From Parcubacteria group bacterium Gr01-1014_3 (lineage in GTDB: Bacteria > Patescibacteriota > Minisyncoccia > UBA6257 > WO2-44-18): a DNA stretch of 64,000 nt. Each line of letters begins with the position of its first letter. The stretch's first letter is position 1. The stretch spans positions 316,203-380,202 of the forward strand of contig VMGF01000001.1 of NCBI GenBank assembly GCA_007376445.1, given 5' to 3'. The notes beneath the pieces were generated by a model. It saw nothing but the letters and a program-made list of their open reading frames with translations, did not search any database and was not told where the DNA came from. The position numbers and the translations under genes are program-made. This document shows, in pieces, positions 1-60,548 of this stretch.

Positions 1-1458
1 ATTCCTATCATTGCCGATGAAAAGATCGATCTGGCTTTTGGCACGGGCGCGGTAAAGGTGACACCGGCGCACGATATGCTGGATTCCGAGATCGGTGAGC
101 GTCACCAACTGCCGAAATACGAAATTATCAATGAGCGAGGCAAGATGACTGACGTCGCTGGCGCGGAATTCACCGGTTTGAAAGTGGCCGAAGCTCGTGA
201 AAAGGTGGTGAAAAAACTAGAAGAGGCAGGACTCATCGAGAAAGTGGAAGATTATAAGCACAACGTGGCGATCTGCTATCGCTCCGCCACGGTACTGGAA
301 CCGCTTTTGAGCAATCAGTGGTTTTTGAAGATGGCCGAGCTGGCGAAAGAAACCCTCAAAACCATGAAGTCCGGAAAAACCAAGATTTTGCCGGAAAATT
401 TTGAAAGAACCGCCACGGCTTGGCTAGAGAATATCCGAGATTGGTGCATTTCTCGCCAGATCTGGTGGGGACATCAGCTACCTGTTTGGTTTTGCGAAAA
501 ACAAACAGGAATTTCCAATTCTCAAGTTCCAATTTCCAATGAAAATTTAAAATTGAAAATTGAAAATTCATCGGCGACCAAGGATTTCGTTGTTGCAATT
601 GAAAAACCTATCAAATGCCCATTTTGTAAAAATTGTATCATGGAGCAGTCGGCCGATGTACTAGATACCTGGTTTTCTTCGGCGCTTTGGCCGTTCGCGG
701 GTTTATCGGATAAGGATATAAAGGACTTTTATCCGTCTAGCGTATTGATCACCGCGCGCGACATCATCAATCTCTGGGTTTCCCGCATGATCTATTCCGG
801 TTTGGAGTTCCAAAAAGCCACACCGTTCCCGGAAGTTCTGATTCACGCCACGATTTTAACCAAAGATGGCCAAAGAATGTCCAAGAGCAAGGGGACGGGC
901 ATTGATCCGGTGGAACTGATCGATAAATATGGCGCGGACGCGACCCGCTTCGGTATTATTTGGCAGGCCATGGGCACTCAGGACATCCGCTGGGATGAGA
1001 CGGCGGTGCAGGGTGGCAAGAAATTCGCCAATAAACTTTGGAATATCGCCAAATTCATTCAAGGCAAATTAGCGAATAGCGAATTTAGTACGAATAAACG
1101 AATAAACGAATTTGGAATTCGTAAATTAGAGAAGGATTCGTTATTAGTTGATCAGGAAGATAAAGAAATCTTGGCAAAACTGGAAACTTTGAAATCGGAA
1201 GTAGAAAAAGACACCAAAAACTACGAACTTGGCCAGTCTCTGCACAAAATTTATGAATTCGTGTGGCATGAGGTGGCCGATAAATACCTTGAGGCCTCCA
1301 AGAAGCGCGAAGACGAAAATGTTAAAATGGTATTAGGGTATATTTTGCAAGAATCATTAAAGATCTTGCACCCATATATGCCCTTTATCACGGAAGAGAT
1401 CTACCAAAAGCTTTCCGATCGCCCCGGCGAGAGCTGGCTGATCGTTGAGCAGGTTTAG
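1..1458 (+). CDS. valS: valyl-tRNA synthetase, C-terminal part (5' end lies outside the window)
   Basis: The frame is open from nt 1 and begins IPIIADEKIDLAFGTGAVKVTPAHD, the class I ValRS motif. A KMSKS-type motif MSKSKGTGIDP and a coiled-coil C-terminus follow. The stop is TAG at 1456-1458. It carries an in-frame low-complexity insert ISNSQVPISNENLKLKIEN encoded by ttccaa/gaaaatt repeats. Confidence 0.9.
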   Translation: MPIIADEKIDLAFGTGAVKVTPAHDMLDSEIGERHQLPKYEIINERGKMTDVAGAEFTGLKVAEAREKVVKKLEEAGLIEKVEDYKHNVAICYRSATVLEPLLSNQWFLKMAELAKETLKTMKSGKTKILPENFERTATAWLENIRDWCISRQIWWGHQLPVWFCEKQTGISNSQVPISNENLKLKIENSSATKDFVVAIEKPIKCPFCKNCIMEQSADVLDTWFSSALWPFAGLSDKDIKDFYPSSVLITARDIINLWVSRMIYSGLEFQKATPFPEVLIHATILTKDGQRMSKSKGTGIDPVELIDKYGADATRFGIIWQAMGTQDIRWDETAVQGGKKFANKLWNIAKFIQGKLANSEFSTNKRINEFGIRKLEKDSLLVDQEDKEILAKLETLKSEVEKDTKNYELGQSLHKIYEFVWHEVADKYLEASKKREDENVKMVLGYILQESLKILHPYMPFITEEIYQKLSDRPGESWLIVEQV

Positions 1459-7555: not shown

Positions 7556-8296
7556 ATGGCTGCGCATACCAGCCGTGAACTGGCAGAACTCCATATGCAT
7601 AGGCTATGGAGTGGCTCTGGGGGAATCGCTGAATTGGTTGCGAGGGATAAGCGAGACCCGGTAGAAGTAGCTGCAATACTGCAGGCTATCAAAGATGGTA
7701 AGACATTCGGCTGGCTGAGAGATCGAAGGTCGGAGGATCCTGATCACCTGCTTTATCAGTGGCAGAATCTCTACCTCGAGCTGGGTCTCAAGGTAGACAT
7801 CAGCAACCTCAAGATCCCGGCTCCCGAGCCCGGCTTCACCAGGCTGATCCTCATCCCGGAAGGCATGACACCCAACAAGGCGTTCGCCCTCCTCAAGAAG
7901 AAGACGCAGGCCTGGAAGTACACCGACAACCTCGATACGATCACCTCAATCCGCGACACCAAGAAGACCTATGTCATCTGGGTGCGAGACCGCCAGGAAG
8001 CCGACGAAGAACTCAAGAACAAGTCAGCCGACGATCTCAAGAGGGACGGCGTCAACTGCATCACTCTCATCGAGCGTCTACTCTACGAGTTGAAGTTCTT
8101 CACCGAAACCCTCCAAGGCGGGCAAGCCGGCAAGCACCTCGACGAGAAGAACTGGACGCTCTGTGCCGGCTCGCGTTTTCAGGATGGCAGCGTTCCGTAC
8201 ATGGACTGGGTTCCGGACGACGGCGGGGTCGGCGTCGGCTGGGGCTATGCCGACAGCCGGTTCGAGAGCATGCGCAGTCGTGTAGTAGTTTCGTAA
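7556..8296 (+). CDS. hypothetical protein, GC-rich with atypical codon usage
   Basis: It has a strong SD (aaaggagg) and a hairpin ttcatccg-cgcatac-cggatgaa just upstream. GC is about 60 percent against about 45 percent in its neighbours. A rho-independent terminator agccctccgacttaaagtcggagggcttttt follows at 8325-8355. Confidence 0.5.
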   Translation: MAAHTSRELAELHMHRLWSGSGGIAELVARDKRDPVEVAAILQAIKDGKTFGWLRDRRSEDPDHLLYQWQNLYLELGLKVDISNLKIPAPEPGFTRLILIPEGMTPNKAFALLKKKTQAWKYTDNLDTITSIRDTKKTYVIWVRDRQEADEELKNKSADDLKRDGVNCITLIERLLYELKFFTETLQGGQAGKHLDEKNWTLCAGSRFQDGSVPYMDWVPDDGGVGVGWGYADSRFESMRSRVVVS

Positions 8297-10353: not shown

Positions 10354-11373
10354 ATGGAACAGAAAGGCATAATGATCAGCTGGGCGAGCCTGTGGAAGAT
10401 AGTCTTAATGCTTCTGCTGGTTTGGGTTCTTTACGTGGCGCGTGAGATAGTGGTCGCGCTCTTTTTGGCTATCGTAGTTTCTGCCGCTTTTGACCCGGCC
10501 GTTAGTTGGATGGAGAAACGAAAAATTCCTAGAATTCTTGGCACGCTTGGCATGTATATCTTGATGATCTTCTTGATCGGCATGCTGGTTTACGCGGTTG
10601 TTCCGATCGCGCTTTCAGAATTAAGTATTTTCTTGGGTAACCTTGGTAAGATCTCCGGCAACCTTTCCGACCTCGTGGACGCCTCCAGTCTGATCCAGGC
10701 GGTGAATCAGAGTTTAACCAGACTGACCAACCTGCTTTTAAGTGGCAGCTCGTCCTTGCTGGATATTGGCTCACAATTTTTGGGCGGTTTAACAATGACG
10801 ATTTCGGTATTCGTTTTGTCCTTTTATCTTACAGTCGGCAAAGATGGTGTAGAGAAATTCTTGGTGAACGTTCTCCCGCCGGCCTATGAAAGCGTAGCGA
10901 CGGACCTTTATTATCGGATCCGAAAGAAGATCGGACGATGGCTGTCTGGCCAGGTTATCTTAAGTTTTGCGATTGGCCTGATGGTTTTCTTGGGGCTGTG
11001 GATATTAGGGGTTAAATACAGCCTGCTTCTTGGTATCTTGGCCGGTATCTTTGAGCTAATTCCTTATGTGGGCCCGATCTTTAGTGGAAGCTTGGCCGTT
11101 TTAGTTGGCGCGACCCATTCTTTGTCATTAGGCCTTTATACGGCTATTTTGTTCATCATTATTCAGCAGCTCGAGAATCATGTCCTGGTGCCGGCCGTCA
11201 CTAAATTCACGACCGACATTTCGCCGGTAGTCATTTTGGTAGCTCTACTTGTTGGCGCCAAGGTGTTTGGCTTTGTGGGATTGATCTTAGCAGTGCCGAT
11301 CACGGTGCTTTTACAGGAATTTTTGGAGAACTGGTCTCAAACAAAAGCTCGAAGGAGAGGACTGGGTATCTAG
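10354..11373 (+). CDS. AI-2E family transporter (PerM/TqsA-like permease)
   Basis: It has 7-8 TM helices and the conserved ELIPYVGPI motif. Confidence 0.7.
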   Translation: MEQKGIMISWASLWKIVLMLLLVWVLYVAREIVVALFLAIVVSAAFDPAVSWMEKRKIPRILGTLGMYILMIFLIGMLVYAVVPIALSELSIFLGNLGKISGNLSDLVDASSLIQAVNQSLTRLTNLLLSGSSSLLDIGSQFLGGLTMTISVFVLSFYLTVGKDGVEKFLVNVLPPAYESVATDLYYRIRKKIGRWLSGQVILSFAIGLMVFLGLWILGVKYSLLLGILAGIFELIPYVGPIFSGSLAVLVGATHSLSLGLYTAILFIIIQQLENHVLVPAVTKFTTDISPVVILVALLVGAKVFGFVGLILAVPITVLLQEFLENWSQTKARRRGLGI

Positions 11374-23096: not shown

Positions 23097-23142
23097 CTAA
23101 CACCTCCAAAAGACTATGCGTAATTTAACACTTAAATAATTA

Positions 23143-23814
23143 CTAGTCAATCTTAGAACGCCCGTGATGCTTCCAAAGCTCAATAACGGCTGGAACAACC
23201 GAAATCATAATGATGGCGATCACTACTAATCCAAAGTTATCTTTGATGATCGGAATATTGCCAAAGAAATAACCACCAAAAATGAATAAGCCGATCCAAG
23301 CGATACCGCCGATGATGTTGTAACTTAAAAAGGTTTTATATTCCATTTTGCCGACTCCGGCGATAAAGGGAGCGAAGGTGCGGATGATCGGGACAAAGCG
23401 GGCGAGGATGATCGTTTTTTTGCCATGTTTTTCATAAAATCCTTGTGTACGCTTTAGGTATTCTTCATTGATCAACGGCCGATCTTTTTCAAAAACCCTT
23501 CCTCCTATTTTGTAGCCAGCCCAATAGTTTGCGGTATCACCAAGGATCGCGGCCGCGGTGAGCAGTAAAAATAACCAAACCGGATCAAGGCTAGTTGTAG
23601 CCGCGAGTGCGCCAGCGGCAAAAAGCAAAGAATCGCCAGGCAAGAATGGCGTGACCACGAGGCCGGTTTCTAAAAAGATTATTAAAAATAAAACACCATA
23701 AGCCAGGAGGCCGTAGTCTTGCACTACCACCCCAAGATGCCGATCGATATGGAGAATATATTCAAAGGCGAGTTTAAGAAGTTCCATTAAATGATTATAA
23801 CTGATTTTTGCCAC
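23143..23814 (-). CDS. DedA family membrane protein
   Basis: It has VTPFLPGDSLLFAAGALAA and IPIIRTFAPFIAG, both typical DedA/SNARE-associated motifs. Confidence 0.8.
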   Translation of the reverse strand: MAKISYNHLMELLKLAFEYILHIDRHLGVVVQDYGLLAYGVLFLIIFLETGLVVTPFLPGDSLLFAAGALAATTSLDPVWLFLLLTAAAILGDTANYWAGYKIGGRVFEKDRPLINEEYLKRTQGFYEKHGKKTIILARFVPIIRTFAPFIAGVGKMEYKTFLSYNIIGGIAWIGLFIFGGYFFGNIPIIKDNFGLVVIAIIMISVVPAVIELWKHHGRSKID

Positions 23815-32255: not shown

Positions 32256-32411
32256 GACCTTTCTCCTAATTGTTTTTCAAGTTCAAAAGAACGCAGACAA
32301 TCCACATTCTTCACTAGGGTCAATTATAGCAAATATAAGGCATTTTGTCAATACCATGCAAGTTGCCAGTTGAGGCTGACTTTGATAACATCTATAATAC
32401 TTTAGTCTAGC

Positions 32412-42941: not shown

Positions 42942-43460
42942 ATGGGGCTTTTAAATCTCAGAAGAGATTTACAACCCAGGGGCGTACCGCTTAAAAACAT
43001 GACTAATCTCATTCAAAAGGTAGTTAATGGAGTTATCTCATTGGCCATTATCGTTAATGCCCAAGCTATTACTCCGGCTACTCAATTCACTACTTTGGAC
43101 CTTGAGAATGCCTTTGTTGAAGCGGACTTGAACGCCACTGCGCTGGTCGCCAAAACTCCTTTAGAGGAGGGTGTTCGTAGGATGATGGTGGATATGACTG
43201 CCTATTCTTCGACTCCCGGCCAGACTGATGATTCGCCGTTTATTACGGCTTCCGGTCATCATGTTCGCGATGGTATCGTAGCGGCTAACTTCCTTCCAAT
43301 GTACACCCAGATCAAGATCCCCGAGCTTTTCGGCGAGAAGGTCTTCGTGGTTGAGGATAGGATGAACCGCCGTTACACTCACCGTGTCGACATTTGGTTT
43401 GCCGATACCAAGGATGCTTGGAAATTCGGTCTCAAGCGTGTAGAGATAGTGGTATTGTAA
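42942..43460 (+). CDS. 3D-domain (MltA-like) protein with signal/TM anchor
   Basis: MTAYSSTPGQTDDSPFITASGHHVRDGIVAAN...VDIWFADTKDAWKFG fits the 3D (three-Asp) domain pattern. Confidence 0.65.
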   Translation: MGLLNLRRDLQPRGVPLKNMTNLIQKVVNGVISLAIIVNAQAITPATQFTTLDLENAFVEADLNATALVAKTPLEEGVRRMMVDMTAYSSTPGQTDDSPFITASGHHVRDGIVAANFLPMYTQIKIPELFGEKVFVVEDRMNRRYTHRVDIWFADTKDAWKFGLKRVEIVVL

Positions 43461-43536
43461 ACCCAAAAGCGCCCCTCGCGGGCGCTTTTGGTTAGTTGAA
43501 AAAAAGTCGAAAAAAGATAATACTATAACTAGTTTC

Positions 43537-43609
43537 AGGCCGCATAGCCAAGTGGTAAGGCAGAAGTCTGCAAAACTTCTATGCGCCGGTTCGATTCCGG
43601 CTGCGGCCT
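43537..43609 (+). tRNA. tRNA-Cys(GCA)
   Basis: The cloverleaf is GGCCGCA...GAAGT-CTGCAAA-ACTTC...GCCGG-TTCGATT-CCGGC-TGCGGCC-T. The discriminator is U. Confidence 0.85.
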
Positions 43610-43638
43610 CCGCGAATTTTTCGCGAATATACAGATTT

Positions 43639-43719
43639 GCCCGGGTGGTGAAATGGCAGACACACATCCCTTAAGAGGATGCGCCGCAAGGCTTGCCGGT
43701 TCGAGTCCGGCCCCGGGCA
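43639..43719 (+). tRNA. tRNA-Leu(TAA), type II
   Basis: The cloverleaf is GCCCGGG-TG-GTG...-CATCC-CTTAAGA-GGATG-long arm-GCCGG-TTCGAGT-CCGGC-CCCGGGC-A. Confidence 0.85.
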
Positions 43720-44072
43720 CAATAGATAAAATGCAAACAAAATGCCAGCACAAAAATAGGAGAATCCAATCAACACCGTCGTTTCATCAGTCGGGTTTTA
43801 CCCCAACTATTTCAGAATGTGTAGATTGCAAGTTAGTCATGCAAGAGACGGAATTTCTTCAATTTGAAGCTGTGGTCGAGCTTACAAATTGGCAAAAGTG
43901 GATTCCGATGTTCATTTCAGGGATCGCATTAGTAGTCTCCGTAGTTGGTACCTGGATTAGTTGGTATAAATAATTTTTTCTCTACTCCCGCCAAAGGCGG
44001 TGCCCAAAAATTTATATTGACGTTAATATAAAATTATGCTATAAAATGCGGGTGTCGTAAGATTCAGGCACA

Positions 44073-45533
44073 TTGACAATAGGAGGACCCAGAATGATCG
44101 TAGGACTGCTGCTCGTTATGAGTGTTGTGGCGACGCTTTTGCTATTCTTTTTGCTTCCCCGGACGGCATGGTTTCGGCGTATGCGCGCGCATTGGCTTGT
44201 ATTCCGCCTGGCGTGGACTGTACATAAAATGAAAGAAGTCGTCGACAATTATGACTCCCCAAAATCAAAGCTGAAAAGAGCTCGTGAAGCAGTTGAAGTT
44301 TTACGAGCCGGTTTCTGGGTGAATCCCATGGGTGACAATATCTACTTGGATTCAGGCGAATACTCCGGAATAGCCGGACGACTAAGTGACATTGTCGAGG
44401 CACTGGAAGCCAATTCTTCATATGAGCAAATTGGCACCACGAAAGAAGAGGTCATTGGTTTTAGGAATGGTAACGCCCACAAGGCTTCCGCGCGGCTTCA
44501 GGTTGACCTGTTTCGGAATCTTAAACAAGAACCTCGTATTCATTGTATTACCAAGCTTGCAGAAGACGCCGGCTTCACTCTTGACGAAATCGGCACGAGC
44601 GTAAGAGAACTCGAATCGCTCCAGAGAGAACATGATCGTCTACTACGGGTAGACGAAGTGCAAGGATTTAGAGAGTGGGCTACGGGTAAATCGGATTTCC
44701 GGCGAGCCCCCGACGAGTTCGAGAAGCGAATTTCTGATCTTTTGTCTGGGAAGCATTACGCCGGTAGATTCACTTATGAAGAGATCGGCACCAGCGAGCA
44801 GGAGTATCTGGAAATTATGCGCCTTGCTCGGCGTCGCGAAGTGATTTTCTGGATCGATTATTTTAAGAATAAGACTGATAAAGGCGAAACCGATAACTCA
44901 TTCGCCCGAAAAGAGATCAGGAAGTCTTTGAAGAAATCGGGATTGGCATTGAGCGATTTCGGCATCACCGCACTTGACTTGGACGAAATCGAACGACGCG
45001 CCTATATTAACAAGGCCAAGGATTCACTGAAAGAACTTAAGACGCCGGGTGAGGGTTGGTTTTACTCAGGACCTCTTAATACGAATTATTCCAATGTCCG
45101 ATTCTATAAGCCCGCGCTTTTGGGGTGCATTCCCGGAGATCCTCTGGTCTTTGTAAAAGAAATTGAGAAAAATCTGGCGACCGCAAAGAGCACGCTATCC
45201 GATATTGGGACGAACGAGTCGGAAATGAAAGTTTTTGTGCGCGCTGGCCATCTTGCTTCTGTTAAGTTTCTTTTGAAAGAGCTTGAAGACGTCTCGCAAA
45301 CTCCCAGACGAACCAGAATCGAACGAGTAGCGAGTATGCTTGGACCTAAAGCAATGATCATGGATGATCCAAGCAGCCCAATTGATCGTACGACTCTCGA
45401 GGACCCATATCCGATCGATCGCGATATTCAAGCGATTGAATATCATCTCAATGGAGCGGGAATCGGACTCGAAGAAATAGGAAGTTCTCAGGAGAAGCTT
45501 CAGGAACTGAAAGCTATTATCGAGGCACGGTAA
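44073..45533 (+). CDS. novel repeat protein: N-terminal TM plus six ~60-70 aa repeats each carrying an (E/D)-I-G-T-S-x-x-E motif
   Basis: The repeat hits are YEQIGTTKEEV, LDEIGTSVRELESL, YEEIGTSEQEYLEI, LSDFGITALDLDEI, LSDIGTNESEMKVF and LEEIGSSQEKLQEL. A strong promoter (TTGACG N17 TATAAA) and SD aggagga lie upstream. It sits immediately after the tRNA-Cys/tRNA-Leu pair. Confidence 0.5.
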   Translation: MTIGGPRMIVGLLLVMSVVATLLLFFLLPRTAWFRRMRAHWLVFRLAWTVHKMKEVVDNYDSPKSKLKRAREAVEVLRAGFWVNPMGDNIYLDSGEYSGIAGRLSDIVEALEANSSYEQIGTTKEEVIGFRNGNAHKASARLQVDLFRNLKQEPRIHCITKLAEDAGFTLDEIGTSVRELESLQREHDRLLRVDEVQGFREWATGKSDFRRAPDEFEKRISDLLSGKHYAGRFTYEEIGTSEQEYLEIMRLARRREVIFWIDYFKNKTDKGETDNSFARKEIRKSLKKSGLALSDFGITALDLDEIERRAYINKAKDSLKELKTPGEGWFYSGPLNTNYSNVRFYKPALLGCIPGDPLVFVKEIEKNLATAKSTLSDIGTNESEMKVFVRAGHLASVKFLLKELEDVSQTPRRTRIERVASMLGPKAMIMDDPSSPIDRTTLEDPYPIDRDIQAIEYHLNGAGIGLEEIGSSQEKLQELKAIIEAR

Positions 45534-45596
45534 ATACGGAAGATTTACAGAAATCAAAAATAAAACCCGCATAATCTTAATGATTGGCGGGCTTTT

Positions 45597-45935
45597 TTAT
45601 TTATTTTCCAGCAACTTTTTTTCCACACCAGCCGCTTTCTCCGGGCCGACGTCAATTTTGAAGACGATCTTAGGCATCGGGCGGATATTGATCTTGTCAT
45701 TCAGGATTCCCTGCAAATATCCGCGGCTTTTTTCGAGAACTTCCAGAACCCGGTCAGCTTTGTCGGAGGGGATGACGCTGATCTTACTGATCGCGCGGTC
45801 CAGGTCTTTATTTACATCAACTTCGGTCAGCGTGATCAGCGCGCCGTCAACTTCGATATTGCGTAGCAGGATCTCCGCCAGATTTTTGCGGATCAGTTCA
45901 CTGACCCGGTCTTTTCGATAAAATTGCTTTGGCAT
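45597..45935 (-). CDS. rbfA: ribosome-binding factor A
   Basis: It has a KH-like RbfA fold signature, RVSELIRKNLAEIL...ALITLTEVDVNKDLDRAISKISV. Confidence 0.85.
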   Translation of the reverse strand: MPKQFYRKDRVSELIRKNLAEILLRNIEVDGALITLTEVDVNKDLDRAISKISVIPSDKADRVLEVLEKSRGYLQGILNDKINIRPMPKIVFKIDVGPEKAAGVEKKLLENK

Positions 45936-46034
45936 TGTTTATTAATGAATAAATAATTTTCAATTATAAATTATAAATTTTAAATTAATTTAAAATTTTA
46001 AAATTAAAAATTTATAATTCATTTTGGTTAATGA

Positions 46035-47513
46035 CTATGTTCGGTATAACAATAGGTCCCCCTTGGCGATTTTGGTGGTTGACTCAACCAGGAGGCCGCA
46101 CTCATTTCCGGTCTCAATTTTACCAGCATCCTTTTTGCCCTGTTGTAGGTTAGTGATTTTCAATTCGCCAATAACCGAACCGTTCCGTTCGATAGCTAGC
46201 GTGGATTTATTCAAGATCACGCCCTCGATGACTTTCCCGCCGATAATTTGCTTGCCTGCAGTAGCCTTAGCGGGGGTGGTTTTTCCGCTCTCCCCAAAGA
46301 TGGCCAGAATTTCCAGACGACCGACAACCTGAGGCAGATAGGCCTTTGCCAGCTCTTGCTCGATAACTTTCAAAAGATCGTAAACGATCTCAGATTGGAT
46401 AATTTTAATTTTATGATCCAGGGCCAGAGCTTCCGCCGGTTTAGTGATTTTTGTTTTAAAACCCACGATAACGGCCTTGGTGGAGATCGCGAGTTTTACA
46501 TCGCCATCGGTGATATCGCCGACCGATTCTTCAATGATCTCAATTTTCTGAGTTTTCTTGAGCGGCAGACTTTTTACGATTTCCGCGAGCGCTTCCAAAG
46601 AACCCGAAACATCAGCTTTCAGGATCACGTTCACATCGGACTCGCTGGTCTTGCTCGCCGCGATAACTTTCTTAATTTTAATATTCGGTTCATTTTTTCC
46701 GGCCACGAAATTTTCACCGGCCTTCGGCAGGCTTTCCAATCCAAAGATCAGCGCAGGGGAAGATGGGCTGATTTCTTTGACCGCTTTGCCCAAAAAGTTT
46801 TCCAGCATTTTCACTTTGCCGTTGGCGCTCTCGGTGGAAATGAGATCTCCGAAGCGTAAAGTGCCATCGGTCACGATGACCGTGGCTACGACGCCGCGGC
46901 GGGAGTCCATTTTGGATTCCAAAATCAAACCGCTGGCCGGTTTAGCGGGATCATATTCCAGATCTTCCAGTTCCGAAGCCAAGAGAACCAGGTCGAGAAG
47001 TTCATTTACGCCTTGGCCGCTTTTGGCGGAAATTTCCTGATTGCTTACATCGCCACCATAGCCTTCGAGGAATACTTCGCTCTGCATCAGCTCGTTTTTA
47101 ATTTTATTCGGATCCACGCCTTCCTTGTCGATTTTATTGATAGCGACAATGAAAGTCGTTTTAGTTTCTTTAAGAATTTTTATTGCGGCTTTAGTTTGTG
47201 GCTGGACGCCGTCATCGGCGGCTACCACCAAGATTGCCACGTCGGCGACATGCGCTCCGCGAGTTTTCATCTTACCGAAAGCTTCATGGCCCGGAGTGTC
47301 AATAAAAGTGATTCGCGCTGCTTGTCCTGAGCTTGCCGAAGGATGGACAATCTCATAAGCCCCAATGGACTGGGTAATACCGCCGGCTTCTTTAGCGGCT
47401 ACGTTGGTCTTCCGGATATAGTCGAGCAGCGTGGTCTTTCCATGGTCCACACTGCCCATGATTACTATGATAGGCGATCGTTTTGGCATAGTTATGTGGT
47501 TAAAGATTGCCAC
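46035..47513 (-). CDS. infB: translation initiation factor IF-2 (short form lacking N-terminal domains)
   Basis: It has the G-domain IVIMGSVDHGKTTLLDYI, GGITQSIGAY and DTPGHEAF, followed by beta-barrel domains. It is upstream of rbfA on the same strand. Confidence 0.9.
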   Translation of the reverse strand: MAIFNHITMPKRSPIIVIMGSVDHGKTTLLDYIRKTNVAAKEAGGITQSIGAYEIVHPSASSGQAARITFIDTPGHEAFGKMKTRGAHVADVAILVVAADDGVQPQTKAAIKILKETKTTFIVAINKIDKEGVDPNKIKNELMQSEVFLEGYGGDVSNQEISAKSGQGVNELLDLVLLASELEDLEYDPAKPASGLILESKMDSRRGVVATVIVTDGTLRFGDLISTESANGKVKMLENFLGKAVKEISPSSPALIFGLESLPKAGENFVAGKNEPNIKIKKVIAASKTSESDVNVILKADVSGSLEALAEIVKSLPLKKTQKIEIIEESVGDITDGDVKLAISTKAVIVGFKTKITKPAEALALDHKIKIIQSEIVYDLLKVIEQELAKAYLPQVVGRLEILAIFGESGKTTPAKATAGKQIIGGKVIEGVILNKSTLAIERNGSVIGELKITNLQQGKKDAGKIETGNECGLLVESTTKIAKGDLLLYRT

Positions 47514-47648
47514 AAAAATTGATTTTGAGCAAATTCTGTAAAATTTTAAAGTCCAAATTTTAAATTTTAAGTTAATTTTTTAATTTTGAAATTTATAAAT
47601 TGATTTAAAATTGAAAATTTAAAATTGAAAATTCTGTATACTTAAGGT

Positions 47649-48542
47649 ATGTCGGAAATCGAAAAACTGCTTAAAAACTATCTGGATTATCTGGAAATCG
47701 AGAAGAACCGGCTGGTTTTGACCAGGAATAATTATGAGCGGTATCTCCGGGCATTTTTTGAGAACGGCAAGATCGAGAAGTTAAGTCATCTTACTTTGGA
47801 TAAAATAAAGGATTTTCGTCTGGCACTCGCGCGGCGGGATCTCAAAAAATCTACCCAAGCGTACTATGTGATCGCGATCCGGAATTTCTTGAAGTATCTG
47901 ATCAAAGAGGATTATGAAGTTGTTTCGCCGGACAAGATCGAACTGCCCAAGCTTTCCCAGCGGCAGATCGAGATATTGGATACGGCTGATTTTGAAAGAT
48001 TTTTAAAGGCGCCAAAAGGCGATGATCTTCGTACTTTGCGTGACCGGGCGATCTTGGAGGTTTTCTTTTCTACCGGACTTCGTTTGTCGGAGCTCTGTAA
48101 GTTGGACCGGTATCTGAATCTGGAAAGAGGAGAGTTCACCGTGCGGGGCAAGGGTGAGAAGTTGCGGACGGTATTCTTATCTTCAACCGCCCAGGACGCT
48201 ATCAAAAAATATCTGGCTAAACGGCCGGACACTTTGGAGGTTCTTTTCGTGAGTCTCACAAAAGAAAAAGATAACCCGAAAGTGGTTGGTCCGATCACTT
48301 CCCGGTCAGTCCAGCGTATGGTTAACTACTACGCGAAAAAAGCCGGAGTTATGCATAAGATCACTCCGCACGGATTGCGCCATCTTTTCGCGACAGATTT
48401 ATTGATGAACGGCGCCGACATCCGTTCGGTTCAGGAATTATTGGGCCACAGCAATATTTCCACCACCCAGATTTACACGCACGTCACCAATAAGCATCTA
48501 CAGGACGTTCATAAGGCTTTTCACGGAAAACGCAGACGCTAA
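47649..48542 (+). CDS. tyrosine recombinase, XerC/XerD family
   Basis: It has an N-terminal SAM-like domain and the catalytic R...HGLRHLFATDLL...LGHSNISTTQIYTHV with the Tyr nucleophile. Confidence 0.85.
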   Translation: MSEIEKLLKNYLDYLEIEKNRLVLTRNNYERYLRAFFENGKIEKLSHLTLDKIKDFRLALARRDLKKSTQAYYVIAIRNFLKYLIKEDYEVVSPDKIELPKLSQRQIEILDTADFERFLKAPKGDDLRTLRDRAILEVFFSTGLRLSELCKLDRYLNLERGEFTVRGKGEKLRTVFLSSTAQDAIKKYLAKRPDTLEVLFVSLTKEKDNPKVVGPITSRSVQRMVNYYAKKAGVMHKITPHGLRHLFATDLLMNGADIRSVQELLGHSNISTTQIYTHVTNKHLQDVHKAFHGKRRR

Positions 48543-60423: not shown

Positions 60424-60548
60424 ATATTTTTAGCCTATATTGACTTCCTTTATATAATATGGTATAATTCTAGCAGAAACTTGAGCTTATGGCAATGCGT
60501 TATAAGCGGCAAGTGGTTCCTTAACAATAACCTGTAAATGGAGGAAAA

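What the first reader, a model, noticed from the sequence alone, without database searches (positions are those of the whole stretch)
43974..45533. Novel six-repeat EIGTS-motif membrane protein with strong promoter, sitting directly after a tRNA-Cys/tRNA-Leu pair
The 486-aa ORF has an N-terminal TM helix followed by six degenerate ~60-70 aa repeats. Each is centred on the hydrophobic-(E/D)-(E/D)-I-G-T-S-x-x-E motif. I recognise no known domain. It has a near-consensus promoter (TTGACG-17-TATAAA) and a strong SD. It is bounded by tRNA genes and the rbfA terminator, a typical accessory-insertion site.
Basis: partly seen in the sequence, partly recalled or inferred. Interest (0 to 1): 0.6.

Follow-up and report, generated by a model that had tools for sequence, protein, structure and literature searches.

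The report
Mobile gene for helical-repeat membrane protein
This is a real gene from a tiny uncultivated groundwater-type bacterium (Parcubacteria). It encodes a membrane-anchored protein built from six copies of an uncatalogued all-helical repeat, and it sits on a 1.9-kb piece of DNA that a very close relative lacks at exactly this spot.

Summary
Window 44094-45533 (+) encodes a 479-aa protein (486 aa from the upstream TTG). It has a conserved N-terminal transmembrane helix and six 43-aa repeat units, each detected by a profile built only from unrelated family members. An extended-10 promoter, a strong SD and a bidirectional terminator shared with rbfA are present.

No Pfam, NCBIfam, PHROGs, PADLOC, PDB-sequence or Foldseek (PDB, BFVD) match exists, although the AlphaFold models are very confident (pLDDT 89 and 97). 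The only matches to the EIGTS motif are loops of de novo designed helical repeat proteins (GTSEDEI). The motif is therefore a helix C-cap/N-cap, not an active site.

The repeat defines a family of about 200 clusters. Every named member is from Parcubacteria-type CPR bacteria. Full-length orthologues occur in only 2 of 185,579 species genomes.

A metagenome contig with 91%-identical flanks has tRNA-Cys/tRNA-Leu directly abutting rbfA, so window 43732-45595 is an indel. In six other family loci the gene is flanked by locus-specific direct repeats of 36-89 nt (6/13 loci versus 1/97 control genes). No inverted ends or recombinase are present.

Function is inferred only. The most likely role is a cytoplasmic, membrane-tethered binding scaffold carried on a strain-variable single-gene cassette.

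The parts
43538..43611 (+). tRNA-Cys (GCA)
   Evidence: ARAGORN; Rfam tRNA 69 bits. Conserved next to rbfA in the empty-site relative L014.
43639..43720 (+). tRNA-Leu (TAA). This is the left anchor of the variable segment.
   Evidence: In L014 the same tRNA lies 31 nt from the rbfA stop.
43732..45595 (.). 1,864-bp segment present here and absent from a close relative (indel). It contains a possible small ORF, the promoter, the repeat-protein gene and its terminator.
   Evidence: blastn: L014 2-647 matches window 46241-45596 (91.3%). L014 667-1580 matches window 43731-42841 (91.5%). Only 19 nt in L014 replace the segment.
43731..43973 (+). Possible small ORF of 80 aa from the first ATG (44 aa from ATG 43839), with CxxC and a C-terminal hydrophobic helix. 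Its status is uncertain.
   Evidence: Translation. No SD, no Pfam hit, and no counterpart upstream of other orthologues. A gene caller called it in the Logan assembly L013.
43969..43992 (-). 24-nt relic copy of the rbfA 3' end. It is the left member of a direct-repeat pair with 45610-45633.
   Evidence: 23/24 identical to the rbfA 3' end of L014, with a 20-nt exact run AATAATTTTTTCTCTACTCC. It is 17/24 identical to the window's own rbfA end (read).
44017..44045 (+). Promoter: -35 TTGACG, 17-nt spacer with TG, -10 TATAAA
   Evidence: Sequence. Pattern enrichment 4 versus 0.06 expected. Comparable elements lie upstream of orthologues in unrelated contexts.
44082..44087 (+). Shine-Dalgarno AGGAGG, 6 nt before the ATG
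   Evidence: AAAGGAGG is conserved in all orthologues.
44094..45533 (+). Gene for the 479-aa membrane-anchored six-repeat protein (G01um10143_386, Parcubacteria group bacterium Gr01-1014_3)
   Evidence: Nineteen full-length or near full-length relatives at 46-69% identity plus the 100%-identical database copy. AlphaFold pLDDT 89.
44097..44162 (+). N-terminal transmembrane helix (aa 2-23). It is followed by an Arg-rich amphipathic helix (aa 25-54).
   Evidence: Hydropathy. Charge bias is 0 K/R before and 4 R after the helix in this protein (sequence). All 27 orthologue-group sequences with a detected N-terminal helix have more K/R after it than before it, implying N-out/C-in. DSSP.
44397..44519 (+). 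Repeat unit 1 (aa 102-142, YEQIGTTKEE)
   Evidence: 18.4 bits with the independent profile.
44547..44675 (+). Repeat unit 2 (aa 152-194, LDEIGTSVRE)
   Evidence: 26.4 bits. DSSP: H149-159, H163-166, H170-196.
44760..44870 (+). Repeat unit 3 (aa 223-259, YEEIGTSEQE)
   Evidence: 26.6 bits.
44916..45044 (+). Repeat unit 4 (aa 275-317, LSDFGITALD)
   Evidence: 30.7 bits.
45162..45290 (+). Repeat unit 5 (aa 357-399, LSDIGTNESE)
   Evidence: 33.5 bits.
45435..45527 (+). Repeat unit 6 (aa 448-478, LEEIGSSQEK)
   Evidence: 21.4 bits.
45566..45598 (.). Bidirectional intrinsic terminator (hairpin CCCGC...GCGGG plus T-run, with an A-run upstream), shared with convergent rbfA
   Evidence: Fold of 45531-45615: -20.6 kcal/mol, z = -5.0, 0 of 200 shuffles fold as well.
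45610..45633 (-). 3' end of the functional rbfA gene (rbfA is 45597-45935, minus strand). It is the right member of the direct-repeat pair.
   Evidence: Alignment. RBFA Pfam on the called gene.

Best explanation
The locus is a self-contained, strain-variable single-gene cassette. It carries its own extended-10 promoter, a strong SD, one ORF and a terminator, and it lies between tRNA-Leu and the 3' end of rbfA.

Shown:
- The product has one N-terminal transmembrane helix.
- It has six 43-aa all-helical units. Each unit is a 13-residue helix, a one-turn helix ending in Gly, then a 25-residue helix that starts with T/S-S-x-x-E.
- The units belong to an uncatalogued repeat family found so far only in Parcubacteria-type CPR bacteria.
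- The 1,864-bp segment is missing from a close relative.
- Family genes elsewhere are flanked by locus-specific direct repeats.

Inferred from sequence and structure rules:
- The EIGTS-x-x-E motif is a structural inter-helix joint (a Gly C-cap followed by an S/T N-cap capping box), not a catalytic or ligand site.
- The charge distribution (no K/R before the helix, four Arg after it) puts the repeat array in the cytoplasm, tethered to the membrane.

Inferred function (weakest step): the array is an elongated, non-enzymatic binding scaffold that recruits or holds protein partners at the inner face of the membrane. It is an accessory trait gained and lost as a unit.

How the cassette inserts is not known. 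The flanking target duplications of 24-89 bp, without inverted ends or a recombinase, point to an illegitimate or short-homology insertion route rather than to a transposon or an integrase-driven island.
For: Real, conserved gene:
- 19 relatives at 46-69% identity plus the 100%-identical database copy share 35 invariant columns.
- The TM helix, SD and promoter travel with the gene into eight or more unrelated neighbourhoods.

Six repeats:
- The independent profile scores 18-34 bits per unit against 1.9 bits for the best shuffle.
- All full-length orthologues keep six units.

Fold:
- pLDDT 89 and pTM 0.65 for this protein.
- pLDDT 97.4 and pTM 0.84 for a regular five-unit family member, P0045. 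Both are all-alpha.

Motif is structural:
- DSSP places G167 at the end of the one-turn helix. It places S169 immediately before helix 170-196, with E172 three residues later.
- The only PDB sequence matches of the unit profile are de novo designed helical repeat proteins, through their loop GTSEDEIAEIV (8cwy, 8cws, 5cwb).

Family:
- 205 cluster representatives at E <= 1e-3 carry 1-7 units each, mostly 2-6.
- Named members are Parcubacteria, Moranbacteria and Giovannonibacteria.
- Unit number varies, and P0045 has three identical tandem units. This is typical of scaffolds rather than enzymes.

Topology: in all 27 orthologue-group sequences with a detected N-terminal helix, K/R residues are more numerous after the helix than before it.

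Accessory status:
- The empty site is seen in L014.
- Only 2 of 185,579 species representatives have an orthologue.

Cassette behaviour:
- Significant flanking direct repeats occur in L001, L002, L011, L012, L007 and L016. That is 6 of 13 independent loci against 1 of 97 control genes (Fisher p = 5e-6).
- A 24-nt rbfA relic lies left of the promoter in the window.
- There are no terminal inverted repeats.
Against: - No experiment, partner protein or conserved operon supports a scaffold role. The function is inferred from architecture alone.
- Other family members have signal-peptide or lipoprotein-like N-termini, or none at all. The repeat therefore works on both sides of the membrane, and topology alone says little about function.
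- The topology rests on the positive-inside rule only.
- The strongest conservation in the orthologues lies in non-repeat stretches (EEVIGFRNGEAHK, PGEGWFY, IPGDPL, YPxxRD). These could form a specific site that I cannot interpret.
- GC content is not atypical.
- The indel could be a deletion in the L014 lineage rather than an insertion here.
- The window's own repeat pair is weak (17/24). It is only recognisable through L014.
- A further 236 nt (43732-43967) to the left of the relic are unexplained by a simple target-duplication model.
- Five family loci show no flanking repeats.
Confidence: 0.55

Rival explanations
1. Conflict or exclusion factor. The cassette behaves like a phage 'moron'. 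The membrane-tethered repeat protein would block or sense incoming phage or host-derived molecules at the envelope. This is comparable in logic to superinfection-exclusion proteins, which are small, membrane-anchored and carried as single genes with their own promoter and terminator.
For: - Single gene with its own strong promoter and terminator, with presence/absence between close relatives.
- Placement in tRNA-proximal integration hot spots. A tRNA or tmRNA lies within 1.2 kb upstream in 6 of 12 loci.
- One family member (P0078) lies immediately beside a serine-recombinase element inserted in tRNA-Glu.
- Unit amplification and lipoprotein or secreted variants in the family fit fast-evolving envelope proteins.
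Against: - No hit in PADLOC or PHROGs.
- No relative in IMG/VR viral contigs.
- No structural match in BFVD.
- In P0078 the gene is present with and without the neighbouring element, so it is not that element's cargo.
- The array is predicted to be cytoplasmic here. It would not meet incoming particles directly.
Confidence: 0.2
2. Nucleic-acid tether. Each unit would be a degenerate helix-hairpin-helix or SAP/HeH-like module, and the protein would hold DNA or RNA at the membrane.
For: - The local pattern L-x-x-A-G-h-T-L-x-D-I-G-T-S-x-x-E-L resembles the helix-Gly-helix geometry of HhH and SAP/HeH motifs. This is my reading of the sequence, not a tested match.
- Weak sub-threshold Pfam hits of family members to HHH_9, Ish1, E3_binding and SYY_C-terminal.
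Against: - All those hits are below the gathering cut-offs and differ from protein to protein.
- The soluble part is acidic (pI 5.8, net charge -6). Five of six units are net negative, and acidic residues follow the Gly.
- There is no PDB sequence or fold match to any HhH or SAP protein.
- Exported family members are hard to reconcile with nucleic-acid binding.
Confidence: 0.08
3. Housekeeping membrane scaffold of the lineage. This would be an analogue of EzrA or ZipA: an N-terminal anchor with a cytoplasmic helical array that organises division or envelope synthesis.
For: - The gross architecture matches EzrA as I recall it (N-out/C-in anchor followed by helical repeats). That is background knowledge, not tested here.
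- Neighbours are core genes: rbfA, infB, pyrH, parB.
Against: - The gene is absent from a relative with 97%-identical RbfA.
- It is found in only 2 of 185,579 species representatives.
- There is no conserved synteny.
- No EzrA or ZipA profile or fold match was found, and EzrA did not appear among the Foldseek hits listed for PDB.
Confidence: 0.05
4. Autonomous element. The repeat protein would itself be the mobility protein of the cassette, a new kind of transposase that produces long, variable target duplications.
For: - One ORF of IS-like size (units of 1.0-2.0 kb between the repeats).
- Flanking locus-specific duplications of 24-89 bp.
- Long variable duplications have a precedent in IS1634/IS1549, at 8-514 bp (PMC2266710).
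Against: - No terminal inverted repeats or conserved ends.
- The protein is an all-alpha repeat with a TM anchor and no nuclease or recombinase fold.
- Many family members appear to be exported or lipoproteins.
- There is one copy per locus and no near-identical copies in the window.
- Orthologue divergence of 46-69% looks like vertical or slow descent.
- Unrelated hypothetical genes in L007 and L016 are also flanked by such repeats, which points to a host-wide insertion route.
Confidence: 0.04
5. Not a real gene: a chance ORF with chance motif recurrences.
For: None beyond the absence of annotation.
Against: - 19 conserved relatives (full-length or near full-length) plus the identical database copy.
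- Profile scores far above shuffles.
- Confident structure prediction.
- Conserved SD and promoter.
Confidence: 0.01

Closest known systems
De novo designed helical repeat proteins (DHRs, e.g. DHR4, PDB 5cwb; assemblies 8cwy and 8cws built from them)
   Same: Tandem helix-loop-helix units of 40-55 residues. The inter-helix loop sequence is almost the same (natural D-I-G-T-S-E-E-E-L, designed G-T-S-E-D-E-I). These are the only PDB sequence matches of the unit profile and the top Foldseek hits.
   Different: The match covers only 9-13 residues of the loop. Global TM-scores are 0.10-0.16. The natural unit has an extra one-turn helix and unequal helices of 13 and 25 residues. The resemblance is convergence on an ideal helix cap, not homology.
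Classical alpha-solenoid repeats (TPR, Sel1, PPR, HEAT)
   Same: Arrays of antiparallel helix pairs with variable copy number. They are non-enzymatic and generally act as binding scaffolds. PPR and TPR-containing structures appear among the weak Foldseek hits.
   Different: No profile match reaches the threshold (best Sel1 E = 0.17, TPR_14 E = 0.25). The unit length is 43 aa with a period of 50-56 aa in regular members. The signature is conserved D-I-G-T-S-x-x-E-L plus W-L...R. TM-scores are <= 0.24.
EzrA-type bitopic division scaffolds
   Same: A single N-terminal anchor, a predicted cytoplasmic bulk, and an elongated helical-repeat body.
   Different: No sequence or fold match. The gene is strain-variable rather than core. 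There is no link to division genes.
IS1634/IS1549 insertion sequences (long, variable-length target duplications)
   Same: The insertion is bracketed by locus-specific direct repeats of tens of base pairs and variable length. Here they are 24-89 bp; in IS1634/IS1549 they are 8-514 bp (PMC2266710).
   Different: Those elements have a DDE transposase and terminal inverted repeats. The cassette here has neither, and its ends are not conserved between loci.
tRNA-targeting integrative islands and phage morons
   Same: Placement next to tRNA or tmRNA genes, presence/absence between relatives, and a self-sufficient promoter and terminator around one accessory gene.
   Different: No integrase in the segment. 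The flanking repeat derives from rbfA (elsewhere from smpB, a TrmB gene, an SMC-like gene or terminators), not from the tRNA 3' end. No phage genes are adjacent in the window.

Membership tests
Any curated protein family or repeat (Pfam-A, NCBIfam) | Score at or above the curated gathering cut-off | tested here: not met
   Window protein: the only Pfam line is Histone_HNS_N at 12.5 bits against a cut-off of 24.5. NCBIfam gave nothing. Across ten diverse family members only one line marginally reaches a cut-off: AMPK_alpha_AID in P0051, 27.7 bits against 27, with no single stretch significant on its own, i.e. summed repeat noise. The weak hits are otherwise mutually inconsistent.
TPR/Sel1/PPR-type alpha-solenoid | Profile match to the 34-40 aa repeat signature | tested here: not met
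   Best matches are Sel1 E = 0.17 and TPR_14 E = 0.25, far below the cut-offs.
TPR/Sel1/PPR-type alpha-solenoid | Superposable solenoid fold | tested here: inconclusive
New 'EIGTS' helical-repeat family (defined here) | Two or more units matching the 43-aa profile IREYLKKAGLTLEDIGTSEEELEELRRKGYKAEAKKWLERLRE | tested here: met
   Six units at 18-34 bits with a profile that excludes this protein and its orthologues.
Helix-hairpin-helix / SAP / HeH nucleic-acid-binding motifs | Profile match, and a basic or neutral DNA-facing hairpin | tested here: not met
   HHH_9 E = 0.0086-0.26 and Ish1 E = 0.045, all below the cut-offs. The units are net acidic.
Insertion sequence / MITE | Terminal inverted repeats and conserved element ends | tested here: not met
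   Left end against reverse-complemented right end scores within the shuffle range in all seven repeat-flanked units. Ends differ between loci.
Insertion sequence / MITE | Encoded transposase (DDE, HUH, Ser or Tyr) | tested here: not met
   No such domain in the only ORF. The fold is all-alpha.
Insertion sequence / MITE | Target-site duplication flanking the element | tested here: met
   Locus-specific direct repeats of 36-89 nt in six loci, and a 24-nt relic in the window.
tRNA-targeting integrative element | Integrase gene inside the element, and a direct repeat of the tRNA 3' end at the far boundary | tested here: not met
   No integrase between 43721 and 45596. No copy of the tRNA-Leu 3' end downstream. 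The nearest tyrosine-recombinase-like ORF (47649-48542, called by eye from its translation and not scanned) lies beyond rbfA-infB.
Anti-phage defence systems (PADLOC) / phage protein families (PHROGs) | Profile match | tested here: not met
   Zero families for the window protein in both libraries.
Bitopic N-out/C-in membrane protein | Experimentally determined orientation | not testable with these tools
   Only the positive-inside rule is available: 0 K/R before and 4 R after the helix in this protein (sequence). All 27 orthologue-group sequences with a detected N-terminal helix show the same direction of bias.

The most novel reading that the evidence does not exclude
Genes of this repeat family, and some unrelated hypothetical genes in the same Parcubacteria genomes, may move as promoter-ORF-terminator units. 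They would use an undescribed route that needs no element-encoded recombinase and no defined ends, and that duplicates 24-89 bp of the target. Candidate routes are short-homology Campbell-type insertion of circularised fragments and template-switch insertion after DNA uptake. That would be a distinct mode of gene mobility in CPR bacteria. The EIGTS family would be its most frequent passenger, or conceivably a participant.
Probability: 0.15. Interest if true: 0.8.

Novelty: new variant of a known kind. Interest (0 to 1): 0.55.

Why it matters
CPR/Patescibacteria genomes are small, and a large share of their genes has no assigned function. This work defines one such family: about 200 clusters with a clear 43-aa signature and very confident predicted structures, but no counterpart in Pfam or in the PDB by Foldseek. 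That makes it an easy target for family curation and structure determination.

It also gives a concrete natural example of the 'ideal' helix-cap loop that protein designers arrived at independently.

The exact empty and filled site pair, and the recurrent target duplications around family genes, offer a tractable handle on how accessory genes enter these reduced genomes. These organisms lack most classical mobile elements and cannot yet be manipulated genetically.

Tried and rejected
- The search for homologous proteins with the 43-column unit alignment returned nothing, because the word index needs shared 5-mers. A synthetic four-unit consensus protein worked instead.
- The viral-contig scan with alignment A4 failed for lack of conserved columns. 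Alignment A1 found no relative. A back-translated DIGTSEEEL pattern gave one chance match that is not a family member.
- A literature search for the motif strings found only unrelated text. Searches on CPR repeat proteins found nothing pertinent.
- The Rfam scan of 43400-46100 found only the two tRNAs, so no riboswitch or leader lies in the 5' region.
- I considered that the window's rbfA 3' end was imported with the cassette. It is 23/30 identical to L014 against about 27/30 elsewhere. Other 30-nt windows also drop to 24/30, so the excess is not significant.
- DGR TR/VR repeats were rejected. The repeats flank the gene rather than lying in its 3' end, and the mismatches are not adenine-specific.
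- The short matches between window 540-569 and 47603-47634 are AT-rich low-complexity sequence, not a second element.
- Composition gives no foreign-DNA signal.
Full report
**1. What is at the coordinates**

The window comes from 'Parcubacteria group bacterium Gr01-1014_3'. The protein is 100% identical to the NCBI entry G01um10143_386, a hypothetical protein. The ORF listing reports an ORF at 44073-45533 (+) of 486 aa starting at TTG.

The biologically likely start is ATG 44094, giving 479 aa. AGGAGG lies six bases upstream, and the database entry has 479 aa. In eight related loci the reading frame opens with the same Met directly behind AAAGGAGG.

The promoter is TTGACG at 44017-22, a 17-nt spacer ending in TGC, and TATAAA at 44040-45. 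This is an extended -10 promoter. The consensus scanner missed it only because it requires T at the sixth -10 position. The pattern TTGAC-N14-16-TGnTAWAW occurs four times in the window against 0.06 expected. TTGAC...(A)TGCTA elements precede most orthologues although their upstream neighbours differ.

Downstream, a hairpin at 45566-45591 with a T-run on this strand and an A-run on the other is a bidirectional terminator shared with convergent rbfA. Its free energy is -20.6 kcal/mol, z = -5.0.

tRNA-Cys (43538-43611) and tRNA-Leu(TAA) (43639-43720) are confirmed. They end 373 nt before the ATG, so 'directly after' is loose.

**2. The protein**

Residues 2-23 form the only strongly hydrophobic segment. 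No K/R precedes it and four Arg follow within 10 residues (sequence). All 27 orthologue-group sequences with a detected N-terminal helix have more K/R after it than before it. By the positive-inside rule the bulk of the protein is cytoplasmic; this is inferred, not shown. Two database entries of 431 aa that seem to lack the helix are start-codon miscalls.

The six motif occurrences are real. To avoid circularity I built a profile from 244 units taken only from non-orthologous proteins. It finds exactly six units in this protein, at aa 102-142, 152-183, 223-259, 275-317, 357-399 and 448-476. They score 18-34 bits each, while the best unit in 200 shuffled copies scores 1.9 bits.

The core unit is 43 aa, with consensus IREYLKKAGLTLEDIGTSEEELEELRRKGYKAEAKKWLERLRE. 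Spacing between unit starts is 50-91 aa because conserved non-repeat insertions lie between some units.

AlphaFold2 on the 20-sequence alignment gives pLDDT 89 and pTM 0.65. The model is all-alpha apart from isolated β-bridges, with the pattern 13-residue helix, one-turn helix, 25-residue helix repeated six times.

**3. What the motif is**

In the model the one-turn helix ends at the Gly. For example, L163-I166 is helical and G167-T168-S169 is coil. The long helix then begins at residue 170 and has Glu at 172. That is the textbook arrangement of a Gly C-cap followed by an S/T N-cap with a 'capping box' Glu three residues later. This reading is established structural knowledge applied to the model.

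Independent support comes from PDB sequences. The unit profile matches only de novo designed helical repeat proteins (8cwy, 8cws, 5cwb/DHR4), and only through their designed loop GTSEDEIAEIV. The conserved motif is therefore a structural joint. Nature and design converged on the same sequence. It is not evidence for a catalytic or ligand-binding site.

**4. Family and distribution**

There is nothing in Pfam or NCBIfam for the window protein. There is nothing in PDB sequences, PHROGs or PADLOC.

A word-indexed search of 5.8 billion proteins found the identical database copy plus 19 relatives at 46-69% identity. A full HMMER scan of 1.84 billion cluster representatives with their alignment found 205 proteins at E <= 1e-3. 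Only about ten of these are full-length relatives. The rest are proteins of 120-600 aa in which mostly two to six separate stretches match. These are tandem arrays of the same unit. Some are nearly perfect: P0045 has three identical 56-aa units, and P0051 and P0040 are similar.

Among ten of these proteins, one Pfam line marginally reaches its cut-off: AMPK_alpha_AID in P0051, 27.7 bits against 27, with no significant stretch of its own. This is repeat-summed noise. The weak hits all differ from one another.

Every member that carries an organism name is from Parcubacteria, Moranbacteria or Giovannonibacteria. Among 185,579 species-representative genomes only two encode a full-length orthologue.

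Within the family, some proteins have no hydrophobic segment. About 47 have an N-out/C-in type anchor, and about 15-20 have signal-peptide or lipobox-like N-termini (heuristic). The repeat is thus a general module used on both sides of the membrane.

**5. Is it accessory? Yes, with an exact empty site**

Orthologues lie in a different neighbourhood in every lineage:

- smpB-tmRNA / mazE
- hisS-tRNA-Lys-tRNA-Arg / AHSA1-ileS
- patatin-tRNA-Gln / acetyl-CoA synthetase
- an SMC-like gene / rpsP
- an LTD-PKD gene
- a HIT gene

In each case the gene is a solitary transcription unit.

Searching metagenomes with the window's RbfA recovered contig L014, whose RbfA is 97% identical. There rbfA is followed after 31 nt, which form a terminator hairpin, by tRNA-Leu(TAA) and tRNA-Cys(GCA). 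blastn aligns L014 2-647 to window 46241-45596 and L014 667-1580 to window 43731-42841, both at 91%. Window 43732-45595 (1,864 bp) therefore has no counterpart in L014.

Composition is unremarkable: GC is 0.475 against 0.48 for the window. The event is therefore not recent, or the donor was similar.

**6. Flanking direct repeats (unexpected)**

Just left of the promoter, window 43969-43992 is a 24-nt copy of the rbfA 3' end. It is 23/24 identical to the L014 allele, including 20 consecutive bases. The functional rbfA end at 45610-45633 is the right-hand copy, and the two are 17/24 identical to each other.

The same arrangement is much clearer elsewhere:

| Locus | Repeat | What is duplicated |
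|---|---|---|
| L001/L009 | 89 nt, 93% | 5' end of smpB plus upstream sequence |
| L002/L003 | 36 nt, 94% | tRNA-Arg 3' end plus terminator |
| L011 | 39 nt, 85% | 3' end of an SMC-like gene |
| L012 | 42 nt, 95% | upstream region of the LTD-PKD gene |
| L007 (distant member P0116) | 88 nt, 94% | 3' end of a TrmB gene |
| L016 (P0174) | 42 nt | a terminator |

In a uniform test, 400 nt upstream were aligned locally with 400 nt downstream. Six of 13 independent family loci exceed a score of 18, where the shuffle maxima are 12-15. Only one of 97 other genes in the same sequences does so: infB, through AT-rich low complexity. Fisher's exact p is 5e-6.

The units between the repeats are 987-1,987 nt. 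Each consists of promoter, ORF and terminator. They have no terminal inverted repeats, no conserved ends and no recombinase.

The repeats are pieces of whatever lies at each site, so they are target duplications of 24-89 bp. Long variable duplications are known for IS1634/IS1549 (8-514 bp; PMC2266710). Those are DDE transposons with inverted repeats, which this cassette is not.

Two unrelated hypothetical-gene blocks in L007 and L016 are bracketed in the same way. The route may therefore be a property of these genomes rather than of this gene.

I cannot say what the mechanism is. Candidates are short-homology single-crossover insertion of circularised fragments, and template-switch or illegitimate insertion after DNA uptake.

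Several points remain unexplained. The 236 nt between tRNA-Leu and the relic (43732-43967) contain a doubtful small ORF and do not fit a simple duplication model. Five family loci lack repeats. The indel could formally be a deletion in L014's lineage.

Family genes also lie within 1.2 kb downstream of a tRNA or tmRNA gene in 6 of 12 loci. Taking tRNA density in the window as background (about 11%), this is roughly p = 1e-3 by my estimate. The background figure is rough.

**7. How it most likely works**

Shown: an independently transcribed, conserved gene; one N-terminal anchor; six capped helical hairpin units; membership of a CPR-restricted repeat family with variable unit number; and strain-variable presence.

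Inferred: cytoplasmic orientation; a rigid elongated array; and no enzymatic function, since there are no catalytic motifs and the conservation is dominated by core hydrophobics and caps.

The best reading is a membrane-tethered binding scaffold carried as an accessory cassette (overall confidence about 0.55). The orthologue-specific invariant stretches outside the repeats are the best candidates for a specific interaction site. They are EEVIGFRNGEAHK after unit 1, PGEGWFY, IPGDPL and YPxxRDxxAIxYHL.

Rivals:

- An envelope conflict or exclusion factor of moron type. This is compatible with the scaffold idea and has no direct support. Confidence 0.2.
- A nucleic-acid tether, disfavoured by acidity and the lack of matches. 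Confidence 0.08.
- A core EzrA-like scaffold, contradicted by the empty site. Confidence 0.05.
- A self-mobilising element. Confidence 0.04.

**8. Novelty and verdict**

The protein is a new family within a known kind, the alpha-helical repeat scaffolds. The cassette resembles known accessory 'islets' but shows an unusual, recurrent signature of long target duplication without mobility genes. I rate it 'new variant of a known kind', with interest 0.55.

Noticed in passing
window 43731-43973 (+): Possible small ORF of 80 aa from the first ATG or 44 aa from ATG 43839, with a CxxC pair and a C-terminal hydrophobic helix. It has no SD and no Pfam hit. It lies inside the segment missing from the close relative, and its stop overlaps the rbfA relic.
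   Followed up: partly
window 23123-23150 (-), 32324-32351 (-), 60440-60467 (+): Three further matches to the extended -10 promoter pattern TTGAC-N14-16-TGnTAWAW (4 in the window against 0.06 expected). This looks like the organism's strong-promoter type.
   Followed up: no
window 45962-46024 and 47542-47606: AT-rich 66-nt direct repeat (77%) on both sides of infB, with internal palindromes at 45962-46022. It was the only control gene with a flanking-repeat score >= 18. It is probably low-complexity regulatory sequence.
   Followed up: partly
L017/L019 1-4645 versus L018 4583-4657: In Moranbacteria contigs, an element with a large serine recombinase and an HTH_3/ImmA pair is inserted in the 3' end of tRNA-Glu, immediately upstream of family member P0078. 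L018 is the empty site with an intact tRNA-Glu 344 nt before the gene. An inverted copy of the tRNA 3' half follows the tRNA terminator.
   Followed up: partly
L007 9607-9651 / 10404-10448; L016 6054-6096 / 7926-7968: Unrelated hypothetical-gene blocks are bracketed by 43-45-nt direct repeats (95-98%). This suggests that repeat-flanked insertion is not limited to the EIGTS family in these genomes.
   Followed up: no
L004 6001-6891 (same in L005): An orthologue truncated to 296 aa (four units). tblastn detects no remnant of the C-terminal half downstream. It is a natural short variant or an old truncation.
   Followed up: partly
L001 5770-6000; proteins P0010 and P0011: The database entries of 431 aa are start-codon miscalls. 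The in-frame upstream sequence encodes the conserved Met-Ser-Thr-Glu...TM helix behind AAAGGAGG.
   Followed up: yes
L007 2479-2862: A bAvd (DGR accessory) gene lies 3 kb from the distant family member P0116, next to an LTD/PKD protein gene. No link to the repeat gene was examined.
   Followed up: no
window 540-569 and 47603-47634: Matches of 22-28 nt (93-100%) between an insertion in an aminoacyl-tRNA-synthetase gene and the region upstream of the tyrosine-recombinase-like ORF (47649-48542, called by eye). They consist of AAAATTG-type heptamer runs and are judged to be low-complexity coincidence.
   Followed up: yes
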